Shown: one piece after another, positions 34,718-58,095 of the stretch | Layout: each line of letters begins with the position of its first letter | How positions within the stretch are numbered: the first letter of the stretch is position 1 | DNA from: an uncultured Rubrobacteraceae bacterium | Lineage (GTDB): Bacteria > Actinomycetota > Rubrobacteria > Rubrobacterales > Rubrobacteraceae | NCBI GenBank assembly: GCA_902806085.1 | Contig: CADCVH010000031.1 | Coordinates: 15,950 to 79,949 of the forward strand | DNA length: 64,000 bases | Reading direction: 5' to 3' | Notes under the pieces: model-generated | Seen by the model: only the letters and a program-made list of their open reading frames with translations | What the model was told of the DNA's origin: nothing | The model's database searches: none | Program-made: the position numbers and the translations under genes

Positions 34718-35902
34718 CTAGTACTTCGGGACGCTCGGGTCGATCTCCTCGCTCCAGGCGGTGATGCCGCCCTTGACGTTGTAGACGTTCGTAAAGCCGG
34801 CGTCCTGCAGGAGCTTGACGGCCTTGGCGCTCCGCCCGCCGGTCTTGCAGTGGATGGCGAAGTTCTCGCTCTGGTCGAACTCCGCGAGGCGCTGCGGCAA
34901 TTCGCCCAGGGGCACGAGCTTCACGCCGATGTTCGCGACCTCGTACTCGTGCGGCTCGCGCACGTCGAGCACGTTGATGTCCTCGCCGTTGTCCAGCTTG
35001 CCCTTGAGGTCCTTGACCGTGATCTCCGGCACGCCGTTGTTCTCTTCGGCGGCGTTGGCCTGCGGGATGCCGCAGAACTCCTCGTAGTCGATGAGCCCGG
35101 TGACGGTCGGGTTCTCGCCGCAGATGGGGCAGTTCGGGTCCTTGCGCAGCTTCATCTCGCGGAAGCTCATCCCGAGGGCGTCGTAGAGCATCAAGCGGCC
35201 GATGAGCGGCTCGCCTATGCCCAGGATCAGCTTGACGGCCTCCGTCGCCTGGATCACCCCTATCGCGCCGGGGAGGATGCCAAGGACCCCGCCCTCGGCG
35301 CAGGAGGGAACCAGGCCGGGCGGCGGGGGCTCGGGGTAGAGGCAGCGGTAGCAGGGGCCTTCCTCGGCCCAGAAGACGCTCGCCTGGCCCTCGAAGCGGA
35401 AGATCGAGCCGTAGACGTTCGGCTTGCCGAGCAGGACGCAGGCGTCGTTCACGAGGTACCGCGTCGGGAAGTTGTCCGTGCCGTCCACGATCACGTCGTA
35501 GTCGCGGAAGATCTCGAGCGCGTTCTCGCTGGTCAGCGCCTCCTCGTGGACCACAACCTCGACGTTGGGGTTGATGTCCTTGATCTTGTCGCGGGCGCTC
35601 TCGACCTTCGGGCGCCCAACGTCCGAGGTGCCGTGGATGATCTGGCGCTGCAGGTTCGACTCGTCGACGACGTCGAAATCGACGATCCCGATGGTCCCGA
35701 CCCCGGCCGCCGCCAGGTACAGCGCGAGCGGGCTGCCGAGGCCGCCCGTGCCGACGGTGAGGACCCTGGCGGCCTTGAGCTTCTTCTGCCCGTCGAGGGC
35801 GACCTCGGGCATGATGAGGTGGCGGCTGTAGCGGGCTATCTCTTCGTTGGAGAGATCGACAGCCCCGTTGGGCGACTGCACTAACGGTTCGCGCGTCTGC
35901 AT
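34718..35902 (-). CDS. moeZ: ThiF/MoeB adenylyltransferase-rhodanese fusion
   Basis: RYSRH, GTGGLG, SNLQRQ, CYRC, PSCAEGGVLG, CPIC, rhodanese HCKTGGRS. Confidence 0.93.
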   Translation of the reverse strand: MQTREPLVQSPNGAVDLSNEEIARYSRHLIMPEVALDGQKKLKAARVLTVGTGGLGSPLALYLAAAGVGTIGIVDFDVVDESNLQRQIIHGTSDVGRPKVESARDKIKDINPNVEVVVHEEALTSENALEIFRDYDVIVDGTDNFPTRYLVNDACVLLGKPNVYGSIFRFEGQASVFWAEEGPCYRCLYPEPPPPGLVPSCAEGGVLGILPGAIGVIQATEAVKLILGIGEPLIGRLMLYDALGMSFREMKLRKDPNCPICGENPTVTGLIDYEEFCGIPQANAAEENNGVPEITVKDLKGKLDNGEDINVLDVREPHEYEVANIGVKLVPLGELPQRLAEFDQSENFAIHCKTGGRSAKAVKLLQDAGFTNVYNVKGGITAWSEEIDPSVPKY

Positions 35903-35953
35903 GTTATGAAAACCTCTTTGTAGGGAGTTACGGGTGAAAGACGGGGCGCGGGC

Positions 35954-36247
35954 CTAGAGACATCGCCCTTCGGACACACCACCGGCTATGGATGGAATTA
36001 TGGAGAGCTCGTCCGCGTCGGCGACCTCGGTGTCGGGGCCGTCGAGGTAACGGATGTCCTCGTCGCCCTTGTACACGTTGACGAACGAGCGCAGCTTGCC
36101 GTCGCCGGTGTAGAGGTGTTGCTTGAGGTCCGGGTACTCGGTGGCGAGGTTGCCGAGGGCGTCGCCCGCGGTGCCGCCGCCGACCTCGACCTGCGACTCC
36201 CCGCCGGTGTACTGCCTCAAGGGCGTTGGGATCTTGACCTTCGGCAT
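35954..36247 (-). CDS. cysO: MoaD/ThiS/CysO ubiquitin-like sulfur carrier with C-terminal extension
   Basis: IPTPLRQYT, FVNVY....DIRYL.G, IIPSIAGG followed by VSEGRCL. Confidence 0.85.
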   Translation of the reverse strand: MPKVKIPTPLRQYTGGESQVEVGGGTAGDALGNLATEYPDLKQHLYTGDGKLRSFVNVYKGDEDIRYLDGPDTEVADADELSIIPSIAGGVSEGRCL

Positions 36248-36265
36248 AATATTCTCCTCTTTCTC

Positions 36266-36685
36266 TTAACCTACGATGGTCTCTTCGTCGTAACCGGAAC
36301 GGTCATCCTGGAGCAGCCACGAGCGCATGTCTTGCACGCTCTCCTTGCCGACGGAGGCTATCACGTAAGAGTAGCCGGGCCAGGCGTGGTCCCGGTCGTA
36401 CTCGGACGGCTCCGCCGGGTGGTCCGGGTGGGAGTGGTAGAAACCGAGCACGCCCATCTCCCGCTCCTCGGCCCGGTCTTCGTACTCCTTGATCTTCGAA
36501 GGCTCGATCAAAAAGCGCCTGGACCGCTCCTCCTCGTGGGTGTTCTCCGCCCGCCACACGTCGACGACGACCTTCGTCCCGCCCGCGTCTATGCCCACGA
36601 GCGCCCCGGCGCACTCCTCTGGGTACGCCTCGAGCGCGTGCTCGTGGATCCTCTCGACGTCCCCCGCGCCTATCTTGAGGGCCAC
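36266..36685 (-). CDS. mec: JAMM/MPN+ (M67) metallopeptidase
   Basis: YPEEC.G and HSHPDHPAEPSEYD (HxH-x7-S-x2-D); GTG 36685 with GGAGG SD. Confidence 0.92.
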   Translation of the reverse strand: MALKIGAGDVERIHEHALEAYPEECAGALVGIDAGGTKVVVDVWRAENTHEEERSRRFLIEPSKIKEYEDRAEEREMGVLGFYHSHPDHPAEPSEYDRDHAWPGYSYVIASVGKESVQDMRSWLLQDDRSGYDEETIVG

Positions 36686-36686
36686 G

Positions 36687-37610
36687 CTAGTCCTCCCAGA
36701 AGCTCTCTGAGAGGTACTTGTCTGCCCCATCGCACAGGATGGTGACGACCGTGCCGGACTCTATCTCCCGGGCGACCTGCAGCGCCGTCGCGACGGCCGC
36801 GCCCGCCGAGATGCCGATGAGGACGCCCTCCTCGCGCGCGACGCGCTTGACCATCTCGTAGGCGTCCTCGGTGGCGGTGGCGCGGTTTTCATCGGCGACG
36901 GTGGGGTCGTAGATGGTGGGCACGATGGCGCTCCCCATGTGCTTCATCCCCTCCAACCCGTGAAACGCCCCGTCCGGCTCGAACGAGACGACCCGTATCT
37001 CCGGGTTGAACTCTTTGAGCCGCGTCGAAGTACCGACGAACGTCCCGCTGGTGCCGAGGCCCGCGACGAAGTGCGTGACCTCGCCGCCGGTCTCTTCCCA
37101 AATCTCGGGCGCCGTGCTCTCGTAGTGGGCCCTCGGGTTGGCCGGGTTGGAGTACTGGTCGGGGTAGAAGTACCGCTCCGGGTCCTCGGCGTAGAGCCGC
37201 CGCGCCTCCCTGATGGCCCCGTCGGAGCCCTCGCCCGGGTCCGTGAGCACGAAGTCCACGCCGTACGCCCTGAGGATCTTCTTGCGCTCCTCGCTGGCGT
37301 TCTTGGGCATGCACAGCTTGACCTTGTAGCCTAAAGCGGCCCCGATCCAGGCGTAGGCGATCCCGGTGTTCCCGCTCGTGGCGTCGAGGATGGTCTTCTG
37401 CGGCGTGAGCGCGCCGCTCCTCTCGCCGTCCCGGATCATCCACAAAGCGGGCCGGTCCTTGACGGAACCCCCCGGGTTGTACCACTCGGCCTTGCCCAGT
37501 ATCCGCACCCCGGGCGTCTCCGCCGCGATGGCAGGCAACTCCAAAAGCGGGGTGTTGCCCACGAGATCCGTCACGTTCTTCCCGACCTGTTTGTTAATCC
37601 GAGTAATCAT
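36687..37610 (-). CDS. cysM: PLP-dependent cysteine synthase (CysM type)
   Basis: GNTPL, NPGGSVKDR, ATSGNTG, GLGTSGT, GISAGA. Confidence 0.9.
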   Translation of the reverse strand: MITRINKQVGKNVTDLVGNTPLLELPAIAAETPGVRILGKAEWYNPGGSVKDRPALWMIRDGERSGALTPQKTILDATSGNTGIAYAWIGAALGYKVKLCMPKNASEERKKILRAYGVDFVLTDPGEGSDGAIREARRLYAEDPERYFYPDQYSNPANPRAHYESTAPEIWEETGGEVTHFVAGLGTSGTFVGTSTRLKEFNPEIRVVSFEPDGAFHGLEGMKHMGSAIVPTIYDPTVADENRATATEDAYEMVKRVAREEGVLIGISAGAAVATALQVAREIESGTVVTILCDGADKYLSESFWED

Positions 37611-39812: not shown

Positions 39813-40553
39813 TTGATCGCGCGCTACGCGGGCGGGGAGACCGGGGCGCGGGCGGCGGCCCGGGCCGGGTCGGTAGTGGTCGTGGTCGACGCCTTTCGGG
39901 CGAGCACCACGATCGCGGTCCTCGTCTCCAGGGGCGCGCGCGTGATCCCCGTCGCCTCCATCGAAGAGGCCGCCTCCGCGGCGGCGGACCTGCGCATCGG
40001 GGAGCGGGGCAGCGCCAAGGTGGCCGGCTTCGACTTCGGCAACTCGCCGACGGAGGTCCTGGCGGCGGAGGTGCCGCCCGGCGTCACGGTGGCCCTCTCC
40101 ACGACGAACGGCACCAGGGTCCTCGAGGCCGCTGCCGGATCCCCGGCCATCTACGCCGCCGCCTTCGTCAACGCCGGGGCGATGGCGGAGGAGCTGGCCG
40201 GCGCCCGGGACGTCACGGTCGTCGGCTGCGGCTGGGAGGGCGGCCGCGCCTCGGAGGACGAGGACGCGGCCGGGGCCATCCTGCGCCGCCTGCAAGATCG
40301 GGGCGCCGCGCTGGACGCGCGGGCCCGGCGCGTCGTGGAGGCCTACCTGCGCCGTCCCGCCGGGGCGCTGCGCGACAACAGCGCGGCGCGGCGGCTCAAG
40401 CGCCTCTCGTACGAGAAAGACCTGGAATTCTGCCTCTCCGAAGACACCGTGCCGGTCGCGCCGCGGCTCGTGGAAGGCAGCTTTGTAAGAGGACAGACAG
40501 GAAGCCGGATCTCTGGCCCCGGGGCCAAACAAAAACGCGAAATTCGTCCTTGA
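39813..40553 (+). CDS. comB: 2-phosphosulfolactate phosphatase (ComB) family
   Basis: VVVDAFRASTT, GER, DFGNSP, TTNGT, EDE.AAG. Confidence 0.88.
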   Translation: MIARYAGGETGARAAARAGSVVVVVDAFRASTTIAVLVSRGARVIPVASIEEAASAAADLRIGERGSAKVAGFDFGNSPTEVLAAEVPPGVTVALSTTNGTRVLEAAAGSPAIYAAAFVNAGAMAEELAGARDVTVVGCGWEGGRASEDEDAAGAILRRLQDRGAALDARARRVVEAYLRRPAGALRDNSAARRLKRLSYEKDLEFCLSEDTVPVAPRLVEGSFVRGQTGSRISGPGAKQKREIRP

Positions 40554-40578
40554 CACGGAAGTGGTACGGCTTTACTCT
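40550..40578 (+). promoter_or_regulatory. Near-consensus sigma70 promoter with A-rich UP region
   Basis: TTGACA (40550-40555), 17 nt, TACTCT (40573-40578); aaacaaaaacgcgaaatt upstream. Confidence 0.8.
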
Positions 40579-40647
40579 GCAGTTAGCCAGGGCGGATCAA
40601 ACGTTACAAGCTCCGTCCAACCCGAAACGAAAAGGAGGTGAAAATAA

Positions 40648-40848
40648 ATGACGATGATGATCTCTCACGAGAAGACTCGCGAGGTCACCCGCGAAGACGT
40701 GGACCGGGCCATCGACGTGATCGAGCGCCACCTCGAGAAGGAGGCCAGGACCCGCAACCTGCTCGACGAGCAGGCGATCATGCGCCCCAAGGACTTGTGC
40801 AAGCAGCAGGGCCTCGACATGGTCGCGGAGCTCCGCGGCATGGTGTAG
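40648..40848 (+). CDS. Small orphan protein (66 aa)
   Basis: SD AAGGAGGTG just upstream, own promoter and terminator, genome-typical codons. Confidence 0.8.
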   Translation: MTMMISHEKTREVTREDVDRAIDVIERHLEKEARTRNLLDEQAIMRPKDLCKQQGLDMVAELRGMV

Positions 40849-40947
40849 GACGCGCCACTTCAAGCTTATGAACGGGAATGCACAGTAAGGTCCCGGGCCT
40901 CCCAACGAGGCATCTAGGGGCTGTCCATCCCCCTTCACGAGGCTGAG

Positions 40948-40977
40948 AGAGGGCCGGGTTTTCCCGGCCCTCTTTTC
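40948..40977 (+). terminator. Rho-independent terminator
   Basis: agagggccggg-tttt-cccggccctct followed by a T-rich tail. Confidence 0.85.
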
Positions 40978-41044
40978 TCGTGCACGCAGACGCCGAAGTC
41001 CCACGGAAAGTCACGAGAGCAACGCGTATGCCTCCGGGCTCGGG

Positions 41045-41070
41045 CGGGTACACCCGTGGGCGTGTACCCG
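41045..41070. promoter_or_regulatory. 9-bp inverted repeat upstream of the cupin gene (operator or leader hairpin)
   Basis: cgggtacac-N8-gtgtacccg. Confidence 0.5.
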
Positions 41071-41091
41071 AACCGCAGGAGGCGACGAAGC

Positions 41092-41487
41092 ATGGACCGT
41101 GGGCCGATCGTGAGCCGAGAGGGGGATCAAGAGTGGGAGACCTGGAGCGAGGAGGAGATACCCGAAAGGGGGCTGGTCTACTGGAAGACGCTGATCAGCA
41201 GGGGCGTCACCCGTAGCGAGAACCTCACTTTGGGCGTTGCGAAGCTCCCTCCCGGCGGGGCGCTGCGCGAGCACCGGCACGAACAGGACGAGATCTACCT
41301 GGTGCTGGAAGGGAGCGGGCTGGTCAGGGTCGGCCCCGGGGAGTCGAGGGTAGAGGCCGGGTCGGCGGTCTTCATACCGGGCGACGCGCCCCACTCTTGC
41401 GTGAACACGGGGACGTCGGACCTGCTGGTAGCCTACGTCTTCCCCGCGGATTCCTTCGACGAGGTGGAGTACGTCTTCGAAGGCTGA
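41092..41487 (+). CDS. Cupin protein resembling DddW/DddK DMSP lyases
   Basis: Cupin motifs EHRHEQDEIYLVLEGSG and FIPGDAPH; W.TLI at the N-terminus and FDEVEY at the C-terminus; AGGAGG SD before ATG 41092. Confidence 0.8.
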   Translation: MDRGPIVSREGDQEWETWSEEEIPERGLVYWKTLISRGVTRSENLTLGVAKLPPGGALREHRHEQDEIYLVLEGSGLVRVGPGESRVEAGSAVFIPGDAPHSCVNTGTSDLLVAYVFPADSFDEVEYVFEG

Positions 41488-41526
41488 ACGCGAAGGCGGA
41501 GCGCTTACGGCGGCCGAAGGGGGGAG

Positions 41527-41617
41527 CGGAGGAGGAGGGATTCGAACCCTCGATACCCCGTTAGAGAGGTATAACACCTTAGCAGGGTGCCGCCTTCAAC
41601 CACTCGGCCACTCCTCC
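41527..41617 (-). tRNA. tRNA-Ser(GCT), CCA not encoded
   Basis: GGAGGAG acceptor stem, D-loop TGGCCGAGTGGTTGAAGG, anticodon loop CT-GCT-AA, long variable arm, GGTTCGAATCC, discriminator G. Confidence 0.95.
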
Positions 41618-41671
41618 GAACGGGGCCAGTATACCAAAGACGTTCCGCGCGTTCGATACGCGGGGAAGGGG

Positions 41672-56372: not shown

Positions 56373-57074
56373 GTGGAGAGCATCGAGCGTCCGGCCGTCA
56401 CCGTAAGCTACGCCCAGACCCTTGACGGCCGCCTGGCGACCCTGGACGGGAGCTCGCAGTGGATCAGCGCCCCCGACACGCTCTGCTTCTCCCACGAGCT
56501 GCGCGCCTCCCACGACGCCGTCATGGTCGGCGCGGGCACGGTCGCCCGGGACGACCCGCGCCTCACCGTCCGCCTCGCCCCCGGCAAGAACCCCTTGCGG
56601 GTGGTCGTCGACAGCTCCCTGCGGACCCCGATGGACGCCGCCGTCCTCGCCGGCGGCGCGGCCCGGGGCACCATCCTCGCCGTCAACGGCCGCGCCCCCG
56701 AAGGGCGCCGCAGGGAGGCCGAGTCACTTGGCGCTACGGTCCTGCGGCTGCCCCCCGCCCCGGACGGCGGGGTCGACCTCGGGGCCCTGCTCGGGCGCCT
56801 GGGCGGCCTCGGGGTGCGCTCCGTGATGGTCGAGGGAGGGGCCGCCCTCATAACCGCCCTCCTGCGCGAGAGGCTAGTGGACCGGCTGGCGGTCTGCGTG
56901 GCACCAAAGATACTCGGCGCCGGCATAGAGGCCGTCGGCGACCTCGGCGTCCGGGATCTTGCGAGATCCATCTCCTTGACGGACGTGACCTTTACGCCGC
57001 GCGGCGGGGACCTGCTCCTCGACGGCCGCGTCGAGTACCCAACCTACCGCGATGCCGTCAGCCGCGCCGGGTAA
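56373..57074 (+). CDS. Stand-alone RibD C-terminal (pyrimidine reductase) domain protein
   Basis: YAQTLDG, SQWIS, DAVMVGAGTV..DDPRLTVR, VEGG, APK.LG; no deaminase domain. Confidence 0.85.
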   Translation: MESIERPAVTVSYAQTLDGRLATLDGSSQWISAPDTLCFSHELRASHDAVMVGAGTVARDDPRLTVRLAPGKNPLRVVVDSSLRTPMDAAVLAGGAARGTILAVNGRAPEGRRREAESLGATVLRLPPAPDGGVDLGALLGRLGGLGVRSVMVEGGAALITALLRERLVDRLAVCVAPKILGAGIEAVGDLGVRDLARSISLTDVTFTPRGGDLLLDGRVEYPTYRDAVSRAG

Positions 57075-58095
57075 CTTGAGGGCGAGGGCCCTATGGTTCT
57101 CGGGCCGGCGCGTCGCGGAGCTGCGGCCGGAGGACGCGCCCGCCCCCGGCCCCGGCGAGGTGCGCATCGAGGCCGCCCTCTCGGCCGTGAGCCACGGCAC
57201 CGAGATGCTCGTCTACCGGGGCGAGGTTCCGGAGGACCTTCCGCTGGATCTCCCGACCTTCGCCGGGGGTTTCTCGTTCCCGATAAAGCACGGCTACGCC
57301 TCCACGGGCCGCGTCCTGGACACCGGCCCCGGGGTCGAAATCCTCTCGCCGGGTGACCCCGTCTTCGTCCACCACCCTCACCAGGACGTCTTTACCGTCC
57401 CGGCCGGGTTCCCCGTGCGCCTGCCCGAAGCCCTCGATCCCCTCCGCGCCGTCTTCTTCGCCAACATGGAGACGGCCCTGAACGTCGTCCACGACGCCCC
57501 CGCGCGCCTCGGGGAGGCGGCGGTGGTCTTCGGCGGGGGCGTCGTGGGGCTGCTGGTAACCCGGCTGCTGAAGATGTCCGGGCTCTCACCGGTCCTCGCG
57601 GTCGAGCCCATACCCGAACGCCGAAAGCTAGCCCTGGAGATGGGCGCGGACGCGGCTTTCGGGCCGGACGAAGATCTGAAGGGGCGGGTGTACGGGGCGA
57701 CGGGCGGGCGCGGGGCGGACGTCGCGGTGGAGGCGAGCGGGTCGGGCGCGGCGCTGGCGGCGGCGGTCGAGTGCGTGGCGGTCGAGGGGACGGTCGTGGC
57801 CGCGTCCTGGTACGGGACGAAGCCCGTCGGCCTCCCCCTGGGCGGGCGGTTTCACCGGGGGAGGGTCAGGGTGAGGTCGTCGCAGGTGGGGATGGTCGCG
57901 CCGGAGCTTGCGGCGCGCTGGGACGGGGAGCGGAGGAGGGGGGCCGTGATCTCGCTTCTAGGAGACCCGCGGATACCGCTGGGTTCGCTCCCCGCCCATA
58001 GGGTGCCGTTCGGGGAGGCGCCGCACGCCTACCGGATGCTCGACGCGGGCAGAAACGGGGCCGTGCAGGTCGTTTTCGATTACGGGGGGATGTGA
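57052..58095 (+). CDS. MDR-superfamily dehydrogenase
   Basis: SAVSHGTE (no usual Zn Cys), GY, HPHQ, ETALN, GGGVVG, EASG, SWYG, FH..R. Confidence 0.85.
   Translation: MPSAAPGNLRARALWFSGRRVAELRPEDAPAPGPGEVRIEAALSAVSHGTEMLVYRGEVPEDLPLDLPTFAGGFSFPIKHGYASTGRVLDTGPGVEILSPGDPVFVHHPHQDVFTVPAGFPVRLPEALDPLRAVFFANMETALNVVHDAPARLGEAAVVFGGGVVGLLVTRLLKMSGLSPVLAVEPIPERRKLALEMGADAAFGPDEDLKGRVYGATGGRGADVAVEASGSGAALAAAVECVAVEGTVVAASWYGTKPVGLPLGGRFHRGRVRVRSSQVGMVAPELAARWDGERRRGAVISLLGDPRIPLGSLPAHRVPFGEAPHAYRMLDAGRNGAVQVVFDYGGM

What the first reader, a model, noticed from the sequence alone, without database searches (positions are those of the whole stretch)
41045..41487. Stand-alone cupin resembling DddW/DddK DMSP lyases in a probable actinobacterium
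Seen: WKTLIS...LTLGVAKLPPGGALREHRHEQDEIYLVLEGSG...AVFIPGDAPH...AYVFPADSFDEVEYVF. Recalled from memory and not aligned here: DddW and DddK share this layout, including the upstream W..LI strand, HxH...E-x-Y metal and catalytic motif, IPG.A.H, and the C-terminal F..[VI]EY. The match extends beyond the generic cupin core. These lyases are known mainly from marine Alphaproteobacteria, so a functional copy here would widen the known DMS producers. A 9-bp inverted repeat upstream suggests dedicated regulation.
Basis: partly seen in the sequence, partly recalled or inferred. Interest (0 to 1): 0.75.

Follow-up and report, generated by a model that had tools for sequence, protein, structure and literature searches.

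The report
DddK-like cupin in desert Rubrobacter
A small metal-binding enzyme gene in a desert-soil Rubrobacter has the fold and every catalytic residue of DddK, the marine SAR11 enzyme that splits DMSP into dimethyl sulfide. It belongs to a large untested family found mostly outside the sea, is lost in sister strains, and has no DMSP-related neighbours, so a real DMSP role is unproven.

Summary
Window 41092..41487 (+) encodes a 131-aa single-domain cupin. Its best solved relative is DddK, the Pelagibacter DMSP lyase: phmmer E 5e-18, 39% identity over 115 aa, and an AlphaFold model matching DddK at TM 0.86-0.91. All four metal ligands, the catalytic Tyr, the C-terminal lid Tyr and the N-terminal Trp are present. 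Three of DddK's five cage aromatics are kept.

It is not a DddK orthologue. DddK sits inside a star-like family of 340 50%-identity clusters at E<=1e-10, and at least 150 of them are closer to this protein than DddK is. The organism is a Rubrobacter relative from biocrust, rock and soil. Members of this clade at 78-79% identity are already auto-named 'DMSP lyase family protein'.

No DMSP or acrylate gene lies nearby or anywhere in the surveyed window. The gene is under purifying selection (dN/dS 0.22-0.31), yet it is decayed or deleted at the same slot in sister lineages. Its RNA signal in biocrust is weak.

Most likely it is a DddK-type, metal- and tyrosine-dependent beta-elimination lyase with an unknown native substrate, possibly with side activity on DMSP. 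The 9-bp inverted repeat is real and partly conserved, but its function is unknown. I rate it a new member of a known kind, of moderate interest.

The parts
41092..41487 (+). Cupin CDS, 131 aa plus stop. It is a DddK-like member of the cupin-DLL superfamily.
   Evidence: ORF and translation. Pfam Cupin_2 3e-15, and DMSP_lyase PF16867 25.5 bits, below the cut-off of 27. PDB best hit DddK, 5e-18. AlphaFold2 pLDDT 92.9. Foldseek top hit DddK, TM 0.86-0.91. dN/dS 0.22-0.31.
41078..41083 (+). Ribosome-binding site AGGAGG, 8 nt before the ATG.
   Evidence: Read from the sequence. Invariant in relatives.
41045..41053 (.). Left arm of the 9-bp inverted repeat, CGGGTACAC.
   Evidence: The GGGTACA core is invariant in three distinct relatives. 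Any such repeat is rare in shuffles, 46 of 2000.
41062..41070 (.). Right arm of the inverted repeat, GTGTACCCG. It ends 21 nt before the ATG.
   Evidence: The TACCCGA core is invariant in relatives. The inner bases vary without clean compensatory change.
41272..41298 (+). First cupin motif, H61-R-H63-E-Q-D-E67-I-Y69. It supplies three metal ligands and the catalytic Tyr, matching DddK H56, H58, E62 and Y64.
   Evidence: Alignment to DddK. Invariant in 118 family members and in 115 clade members. Residue roles are from PMC10686828.
41392..41394 (+). H101, the fourth metal ligand (DddK H96).
41470..41472 (+). Y127 in the C-terminal F-D-E-V-E-Y. It corresponds to DddK Y122, the lid residue that binds the substrate carboxylate.
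41182..41184 (+). W31 in V-Y-W-K-T-L-I. It corresponds to DddK W26, part of the cation-pi cage.
40948..40978 (+). Intrinsic terminator of the upstream 66-aa gene: an 11-bp stem, a 4-nt loop and a T-run. It separates that gene's transcription unit from the cupin.
   Evidence: RNA depth falls about 10,000-fold across it.
41526..41617 (-). tRNA-Ser(GCT). It marks the far boundary of the variable slot that holds the cupin.

Best explanation
The gene encodes a cytoplasmic, single-domain cupin metalloenzyme of the DddK/DddW-like branch of the cupin-DLL superfamily (DMSP lyases and lyase-like proteins).

Inferred mechanism, by analogy with DddK:
- H61, H63, E67 and H101 hold one divalent metal (Mn, Fe, Ni or Zn).
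- A small carboxylate substrate binds the metal through its carboxylate and displaces water.
- Y127, on the C-terminal lid, hydrogen-bonds that carboxylate and closes the site.
- Deprotonated Y69 removes the C-alpha proton.
- A positively charged leaving group on C-beta, held by W31, Y115 and F122, is eliminated, giving an enoate such as acrylate.

Shown here: an intact, conserved, selected gene; the DddK fold; all six metal and catalytic residues; and three of the five cage aromatics. Inferred: metal binding, lyase chemistry and the class of substrate.

I think the native substrate is probably not DMSP. It is more likely another 3-substituted propionate-type or onium carboxylate met by soil Rubrobacter. 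DMSP or DMSOP cleavage is plausible as a moderate or side activity in vitro. The gene is a dispensable accessory, sitting in a variable slot between a conserved 66-aa gene and tRNA-Ser.
For: - PDB sequence search: DddK is the best hit, E 5e-18 over the full length, and generic cupins are at 1e-9 or worse. Identity to DddK is 39% over 115 aa.
- AlphaFold2 model with pLDDT 92.9. By Foldseek, DddK is top at TM 0.86-0.91 and rmsd 1.6-2.3 A, against 0.76 for TM1459.
- DddK H56, H58, E62, Y64, H96, Y122 and W26 map to H61, H63, E67, Y69, H101, Y127 and W31. The six metal and catalytic residues are invariant or nearly so across 118 family members; W31 is Trp in 100 of the 118. All seven are invariant in 115 clade members. 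Their roles come from crystallography and mutagenesis in PMC10686828 and PMC12582016.
- Purifying selection, dN/dS 0.22-0.31.
- Weak RNA signal over the gene, depth 10-30, where the flanking ComB region reads 0 and YihY 0-4.
- Evidence for an unknown native substrate: the family has 340 50%-identity clusters at E<=1e-10, and DddK is nested inside it. Members come from Rubrobacteraceae, Anaerolineae, Thermoflexaceae, Tabrizicola and Aureimonas. The habitat is terrestrial.
- No DMSP or acrylate genes nearby, and contexts are not conserved.
- Tawfik-lab work concluded that most cupin-DLL proteins are not DMSP lyases, and that DddK and DddW may be bifunctional enzymes retaining an unknown ancestral activity.
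Against: - No enzyme assay exists for any member of this clade.
- The cation-pi cage differs from DddK: F108 becomes V113, and Y21 becomes a non-aromatic residue, I23 or R26 depending on the alignment.
- Cupins with 3His-1Glu sites also act as dioxygenases, decarboxylases and isomerases.
- The RNA signal may be read-through from the extremely abundant upstream transcript.
- DMSP is not excluded in biocrusts, which contain phototrophs. No source consulted here reports DMSP in biocrusts, and the one biocrust paper searched for the term does not mention it.
Confidence: 0.55

Rival explanations
1. It is a genuine physiological DMSP lyase. Rubrobacter in biocrusts takes up DMSP made by phototrophs and cleaves it to DMS and acrylate.
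For: - All DddK catalytic and metal residues are present, with the DddK fold.
- Every characterised cupin carrying HxHxxxExY and studied as a Ddd enzyme cleaves DMSP.
- NCBI already names clade members at 78-79% identity 'dimethylsulfonioproprionate lyase family protein'.
- Some Actinobacteria release DMS from DMSP with no known ddd gene (PMC6309047).
Against: - The habitat is desert biocrust, rock, soil, lichen and hot spring.
- No BCCT or ABC betaine importer, acuI, prpE, acuNK or dmdA is adjacent or among the ORFs surveyed in the 64-kb window. The only Zn-dehydrogenase is not AcuI-like.
- Two cage aromatics are replaced.
- The gene is eroded or absent in sister lineages, including one in the same sample, and in R. 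tropicus at this slot.
- The family is spread over many non-marine taxa.
- The automatic name rests on a sub-threshold Pfam hit, and true DddK scores even lower on that model.
Confidence: 0.2
2. It is a cupin with unrelated chemistry (dioxygenase, decarboxylase or isomerase) or a non-catalytic metal or ligand-binding protein. The DddK-like residues would then reflect shared ancestry only.
For: - The profile search also hits gentisate and quercetin dioxygenases and oxalate decarboxylase at 1e-13 to 1e-17.
- TM1459-type Mn cupins are the next structural neighbours.
- Lei et al. state that the native function of nearly all cupin-DLL members is unknown.
Against: - The two tyrosines, Y69 in E-x-Y and Y127 on the C-terminal lid, and W31 are outside the generic cupin signature. 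The tyrosines are invariant or nearly so across the family and W31 is a Trp in 100 of 118 members, and all three are the residues DddK uses for elimination.
- The gap to the next PDB family is 9 orders of magnitude with the single sequence and 20 with the profile.
Confidence: 0.2
3. It is a decaying or non-functional ORF, or a chance ORF in high-GC DNA.
For: Sister lineages carry pseudogene remnants at the same slot. RNA depth is low.
Against: - The reading frame is intact and has a consensus RBS.
- More than 100 90%-identity clusters of 131-aa orthologues exist, with invariant active-site residues.
- dN/dS is 0.22-0.31.
- The fold is predicted with confidence.
Confidence: 0.03

Closest known systems
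DddK, DMSP/DMSOP lyase of Candidatus Pelagibacter ubique HTCC1062 (PDB 5TFZ, 5TG0, 6A53-6A55)
   Same: A cupin of about 130 aa with a single domain. 39% identity over 115 aa. Predicted fold matches at TM 0.86-0.91. Same 3His-1Glu metal site, the same catalytic Tyr in E-x-Y, the same C-terminal lid Tyr in V-E-Y, the same N-terminal Trp, and the cage residues W110 (here Tyr) and F117 (here Phe).
   Different: Not an orthologue: at least 150 50%-identity clusters are closer to the query than DddK is, and DddK's nearest family member is a different branch. F108 becomes Val and Y21 becomes a non-aromatic residue. The query has a 5-residue longer acidic N-terminal segment. The host is a terrestrial Gram-positive, whereas DddK is reported only from SAR11 (PMC11497337). 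Activity is untested.
DddW, Fe-dependent DMSP lyase of Ruegeria pomeroyi DSS-3
   Same: According to Lei et al. (10.1101/161257), DddW shares a clade with DddK inside cupin-DLL, so it is presumably in the same broad family as this protein.
   Different: Not compared here, because no DddW sequence or structure was obtainable. A search seeded with Rhodobacterales homologues returned only proteins named 'cupin domain-containing protein'.
Cupin-DLL superfamily (DddQ, DddL, DddY, DddU and many uncharacterised members)
   Same: Shares the two cupin motifs, including HxHxxxExY and the second-motif His.
   Different: DddQ structures (4B29, 5CU1) match only weakly by sequence (E about 0.015 with the single sequence) and at TM 0.73. 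No chain named DddY or DddL appears among the 60 hits listed at E<=1 (81 matched). Those enzymes are larger and have extra domains or different localisation.
TM1459 / TTHA0104 / TM1287-type small Mn cupins
   Same: Similar size, jelly-roll core and metal site (TM about 0.75).
   Different: They match only the cupin core of the query (about residues 38-115), not its N-terminal Trp strand or C-terminal lid Tyr. Identity is 22-27%.

Membership tests
DddK (sensu stricto, SAR11 DMSP lyase) | Single-domain cupin of about 130 aa with the DddK fold | tested here: met
   131 aa. AlphaFold2 pLDDT 92.9. Foldseek top hits are all DddK chains, TM 0.86-0.91.
DddK (sensu stricto, SAR11 DMSP lyase) | Metal ligands His56, His58, Glu62 and His96 | tested here: met
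   H61, H63, E67 and H101 align to them and are invariant in the clade.
DddK (sensu stricto, SAR11 DMSP lyase) | Catalytic Tyr64 and lid Tyr122 | tested here: met
   Y69 and Y127 align to them. Both are invariant in 115 clade members, and in 118 and 111 of 118 family members respectively.
DddK (sensu stricto, SAR11 DMSP lyase) | Cation-pi cage for the sulfonium: Tyr21, Trp26, Phe108, Trp110, Phe117 | tested here: inconclusive
   W26 is kept as W31, W110 becomes Y115, and F117 is kept as F122. F108 becomes V113, and Y21 becomes I23 or R26.
DddK (sensu stricto, SAR11 DMSP lyase) | Orthology: groups with SAR11 DddK to the exclusion of other cupins, at high identity | tested here: not met
   39% identity. 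All 150 listed 50%-identity clusters score above DddK's 69 bits. In the NJ tree DddK lies on another branch of a star-like family. Published screens require about 68% identity or HMM E<1e-30.
DddK (sensu stricto, SAR11 DMSP lyase) | DMSP-dependent DMS and acrylate production | not testable with these tools
   Needs expression and GC/HPLC assay.
DddW | Sequence grouping with R. pomeroyi DddW | not tested
   No DddW sequence was retrievable: none among the PDB hits listed, and none named in three homologue searches.
Cupin-DLL superfamily (Lei, Alcolombri & Tawfik) | Motif 1 HxHxxxxExY-type (His, His, Glu, Tyr), the motif 2 His, and a Trp/Tyr active-site residue after motif 2 | tested here: met
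   H61-x-H63-x3-E67-x-Y69, H101 and Y115.
Pfam PF16867 DMSP_lyase | Score at or above the gathering threshold (27 bits) | tested here: inconclusive
   The query scores 25.5 bits, below the cut-off. The authentic DddK fragment scores only 21.2 bits, so the model does not recognise the DddK type. NCBIfam gave no Ddd-family hit for either protein.
DMSP catabolic locus | Linkage to DMSP import or acrylate detoxification genes (BCCT/ABC importer, acuI, prpE, acuNK, dddR-type regulator) | tested here: not met
   The neighbours are an aldo-keto reductase (AKR), ComB, a 66-aa protein, tRNA-Ser, YihY/BrkB and an ECF sigma factor. The window survey found none. Loci of distant homologues also have none.

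The most novel reading that the evidence does not exclude
The Rubrobacteraceae clade, and perhaps much of this large non-marine family, are bona fide lyases for DMSP or a related onium-propionate osmolyte. Candidates include DMSOP and beta-alanine betaine. That would make abundant desert-crust Actinomycetota an unrecognised terrestrial source of DMS or trimethylamine. It would also be the first ddd-type gene with a physiological role in a Gram-positive bacterium.
Probability: 0.17. Interest if true: 0.7.

Novelty: new member of a known kind. Interest (0 to 1): 0.35.

Why it matters
DMSP lyases are counted in metagenomes to model DMS emission. DddK is described as confined to SAR11, and Actinobacteria are described as having no known ddd gene.

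This locus shows that proteins keeping DddK's fold and all its metal and catalytic residues are common in terrestrial bacteria. Two things follow:
- Motif-based or Pfam-based calls of 'DMSP lyase', including the current NCBI names for this clade, over-reach until a member is assayed.
- This family is the natural place to look for the unknown ancestral activity that Tawfik's group proposed for DddK and DddW.

If a member does cleave DMSP in vivo, the set of DMS producers would widen to desert crust Actinobacteria. A single expression and assay experiment would settle the in-vitro question.

Tried and rejected
- Pfam DMSP_lyase and NCBIfam as membership tests. Rejected because authentic DddK itself scores below threshold on PF16867 and hit no Ddd-family model in NCBIfam.
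No supplements were held, no DddW chain appeared among the PDB hits listed, and a profile search seeded from Rhodobacterales homologues returned no named DddW. Only DddK could be placed. The other families were judged from PDB scores.
Taxonomy and synteny were recovered through the look-up of encoding contigs and cluster look-ups instead.
- A riboswitch or known sRNA between the small gene and the cupin. Rfam gave nothing above noise.
- The plasmid collection gave only weak partial cupin hits in haloarchaea, Acuticoccus and Nonomuraea.
- The Zn-dehydrogenase at 57052-58095 as a possible AcuI. Its closest NCBIfam models are IolM, BchC and Tdh, not an acrylyl-CoA reductase.
- The sigma-70 scan found no promoter for the cupin. 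RNA contig ends at 41069 and 41075 hint at a start just after the repeat, but Logan contigs break for many reasons, so I draw no conclusion.
- Literature searches for Rubrobacter with DMSP, and for soil DddK/DddW homologues, found nothing relevant.

Full report
**1. What is in the sequence**

The + strand carries an ORF ending at 41487. The biologically supported start is the ATG at 41092, 8 nt downstream of AGGAGG. Nearly all of the 120 listed homologues are 131 aa, and those inspected begin at the equivalent M-x-x-x-P.

Only 46 of 2000 shuffles of the 252-nt intergenic region contain any such repeat. In three distinct relatives the outer GGGTAC...GTACCC half-sites are invariant, while the inner bases change without clean compensation. 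The repeat is real and probably functional, as an operator or a 5'-leader hairpin. Nothing here says which.

**2. Whose genome, and where it lives**

The window is 68.8% G+C. The closest cupin homologues (76-86% identity, more than 100 clusters at 90% identity) come from metagenomes. Where they carry names, these are 'uncultured Rubrobacteraceae', 'Rubrobacteraceae bacterium' or 'Actinomycetota bacterium'. The adjacent 66-aa protein falls in one 90%-identity cluster with Rubrobacter tropicus and several Rubrobacter MAGs.

Sequencing runs that contain this stretch are from biocrust, rock, soil, lichen and hot-spring metagenomes. None of the 22 runs listed is marine.

**3. The resemblance to DddK is genuine and specific**

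- phmmer against all PDB sequences puts DddK of Pelagibacter first (5tfz/6a53, E 5e-18, query residues 13-127).
- The next hits are generic small cupins at 1.5e-9 or worse, and they cover only the core.
- DddQ structures score E about 0.015. No chain named DddY or DddL appears among the 60 hits listed at E<=1 (81 matched).
- BLASTP gives 39% identity over 115 residues.
- An AlphaFold2 model built on 50 homologues has mean pLDDT 92.9. Its six best Foldseek matches in the PDB are all DddK chains (TM 0.86-0.91, rmsd 1.6-2.3 A). TM1459 follows at about 0.76, and DddQ (4b29) is at 0.73.
- A family profile hits DddK at 6e-37 against 1e-16 for the next family. That profile contained the DddK fragment as 1 of 54 rows, so it is mildly circular.

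The residues that crystallography and mutagenesis identify in DddK (PMC10686828, PMC12582016) map as follows.

| Role in DddK | DddK residue | This protein |
|---|---|---|
| Metal ligand | H56 | H61 |
| Metal ligand | H58 | H63 |
| Metal ligand | E62 | E67 |
| Metal ligand | H96 | H101 |
| Catalytic base | Y64 | Y69 |
| Lid, binds carboxylate | Y122 | Y127 |
| Cation-pi cage | W26 | W31 |
| Cation-pi cage | W110 | Y115 |
| Cation-pi cage | F117 | F122 |
| Cation-pi cage | F108 | V113 |
| Cation-pi cage | Y21 | I23 or R26 (depends on alignment) |

The metal and catalytic residues are invariant in 115 full-length representatives of the Rubrobacter clade and in essentially all of 118 wider family members. 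The catalytic apparatus is therefore complete. The pocket that holds the sulfonium is similar but not identical.

**4. It is not a DddK orthologue, and the family is large and mostly non-marine**

An exhaustive HMMER search of 1.84 billion cluster representatives found 2603 clusters at E<=1e-3 and 340 at E<=1e-10. All 150 listed score above 76 bits, whereas DddK scored 69 bits in the separate PDB search. A neighbour-joining tree of 118 members is star-like. DddK sits inside it on a different branch, with its nearest member at 45% identity. The Rubrobacter clade's nearest neighbours are other metagenomic proteins at 50-57%. This tree has low resolution and no support values.

Named members include Anaerolineae, Thermoflexaceae, Rhodobacterales and Paracoccaceae MAGs, Tabrizicola thermarum, Aureimonas spp. 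and Aliigemmobacter. Nearly all are annotated only as 'cupin domain-containing protein'. Two clade members at 78-79% identity carry the automatic NCBI name 'dimethylsulfonioproprionate lyase family protein'.

That name seems to rest on Pfam PF16867. The query scores 25.5 bits there, below the cut-off of 27. Authentic DddK scores only 21.2. NCBIfam returned no Ddd-family hit for either protein. These libraries therefore cannot decide membership.

The literature says dddK occurs only in SAR11 (PMC11497337). It says no functional ddd gene is known in Actinobacteria (PMC6309047). It says most cupin-DLL proteins are 'obviously not DMSP lyases', and that DddK and DddW may be bifunctional enzymes retaining an unknown ancestral activity (10.1101/161257 and 10.1101/168930).

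**5. Context gives no DMSP signal**

The local order, conserved in relatives, is as follows:
- MoeZ-CysO-Mec-CysM (minus strand)
- HemQ (minus)
- aldo-keto reductase (AKR, minus)
- ComB-like 2-phosphosulfolactate phosphatase (plus; absent in some relatives)
- 66-aa gene (plus)
- cupin (plus)
- tRNA-Ser(GCT) (minus)
- YihY/BrkB (minus)
- ECF sigma and anti-sigma factors

A Pfam survey of about 45 likely genes across the window found housekeeping functions. There was no BCCT or betaine importer, no AMP-ligase (PrpE), no GcvT-type DmdA and no AcuI. The single Zn-dehydrogenase, at 57052-58095, is closest to IolM, BchC and Tdh models. Loci of homologues at 50-65% identity have unrelated, non-conserved neighbours. 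The nearby sulfur-carrier cysteine genes and ComB are a weak thematic link to sulfur metabolism, possibly coincidental.

**6. The gene is selected, but dispensable**

Between the window and two relatives, dN/dS is 0.22-0.31. Among contigs that carry the same 66-aa protein, however, the slot between that gene and tRNA-Ser varies:

| State of the slot | Loci |
|---|---|
| Intact cupin | window, L014 |
| Intact cupin plus a 142-aa membrane ORF | L012 |
| Decayed remnant: repeat, RBS and the first ~130 nt, with ATG changed to ACG and frameshifts | L026, L027 |
| Stub: repeat, RBS and the first 21 nt of the CDS | L023, L024, L031 |
| Nothing detectable | L022, L025, L029 |
| Only a 144-aa membrane ORF | L032 (R. 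tropicus CP045119) |

L025, which lacks the cupin, comes from the same assembly as the window's own contig. The cupin was therefore ancestral at this slot and is being eroded in one sublineage. This is what one expects of a conditionally useful accessory enzyme.

**7. Expression**

In four biocrust metatranscriptomes, held as Logan contigs, depth over the cupin is 10-30. It is 0 over the stretch of ComB that was laid (its 3' end) and 0-4 over the YihY stretch laid. The gene is therefore transcribed weakly. One contig runs continuously from 40955 to 41504, so part of this signal may be read-through of the upstream terminator.

**8. Interpretation**

- Most likely (about 0.55): a DddK-type, metal- and tyrosine-dependent beta-elimination lyase. 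Its native substrate in soil Rubrobacter is unknown and probably not DMSP. Some DMSP or DMSOP cleavage in vitro is plausible.
- A true physiological DMSP lyase: about 0.2.
- Unrelated cupin chemistry or a binding role: about 0.2.
- A dead ORF is effectively excluded.

**9. Novelty and score**

This is a new, uncharacterised clade of a known superfamily. Its near-identical relatives already carry an automatic 'DMSP lyase family' label, so the novelty class is 'new member of a known kind'. Interest is moderate (0.35). The resemblance is real and cheap to test, and the result would calibrate how ddd genes are called in metagenomes. The evidence does not favour a surprising biological role.

**10. 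Seen in passing**

The upstream 66-aa gene is more striking than the cupin. It is an extremely conserved and very abundantly transcribed unit. Details are in the separate list of things noticed in passing.

Noticed in passing
window 40550-40978 (+): promoter-like TTGACA 40550-40555 and TACTCT 40573-40578; CDS 40648-40848; 3' UTR and terminator 40849-40978: A 66-aa protein of unknown function (MTMMISHEKTREV...AELRGMV). It has no Pfam, NCBIfam or PDB match and is predicted to be a two-helix hairpin. Its whole transcription unit is nearly invariant at the DNA level among relatives whose cupin is only about 80% identical. dN/dS is 0.034 and dS is also low. The 90%-identity cluster has 82 members, including R. 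tropicus, nearly all annotated as hypothetical. In four biocrust metatranscriptomes its contig depth is 1e5-5e5, against 10-30 for the cupin. The 5' end lies near 40594. It looks like one of the most abundant Rubrobacter transcripts in desert crust.
   Followed up: partly
window 40849-40983 (+): The 3' UTR of the 66-aa gene is about 135 nt. It is almost invariant across relatives and strongly structured (MFE -64.7 kcal/mol, z -3.7). It ends in an 11-bp-stem terminator and contains a C-rich stretch (CCATCCCCCTTCAC). One hairpin shows an indel or covarying replacement in L012. Rfam has no match. It could be a conserved 3'-UTR element or a 3'-derived small RNA.
   Followed up: partly
window 41488-41671 and the equivalent slot in L012, L022-L032: The interval between the 66-aa gene and tRNA-Ser(GCT) is a variable slot in Rubrobacter genomes. 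It holds the cupin, the cupin plus a 142-aa multi-pass membrane ORF, that membrane ORF alone (R. tropicus), cupin pseudogene stubs of three lengths, or nothing.
   Followed up: yes
window 34718-37610 (-): A complete sulfur-carrier cysteine biosynthesis set of the mycobacterial type: MoeZ-like ThiF+rhodanese, CysO (ThiS-like), Mec (JAB) and CysM (PALP). It is followed by HemQ (chlorite-dismutase-like) and an aldo-keto reductase, and is syntenic in all relatives examined.
   Followed up: no
window 39813-40553 (+): A ComB-like 2-phosphosulfolactate phosphatase gene lies just upstream of the 66-aa gene. It is present in some relatives (L014, L029, L030, R. tropicus) and absent in others (L012, L022, L024), so it is a second presence/absence polymorphism at this locus.
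   Followed up: no
window 40945 joined to 41524, in RNA runs X1 and X3: One RNA contig in each of two runs joins 40945 directly to 41524, skipping 578 nt: the terminator, the cupin and its flanks. This is most simply explained by transcripts or DNA from co-occurring cupin-less strains rather than by RNA processing.
   Followed up: no
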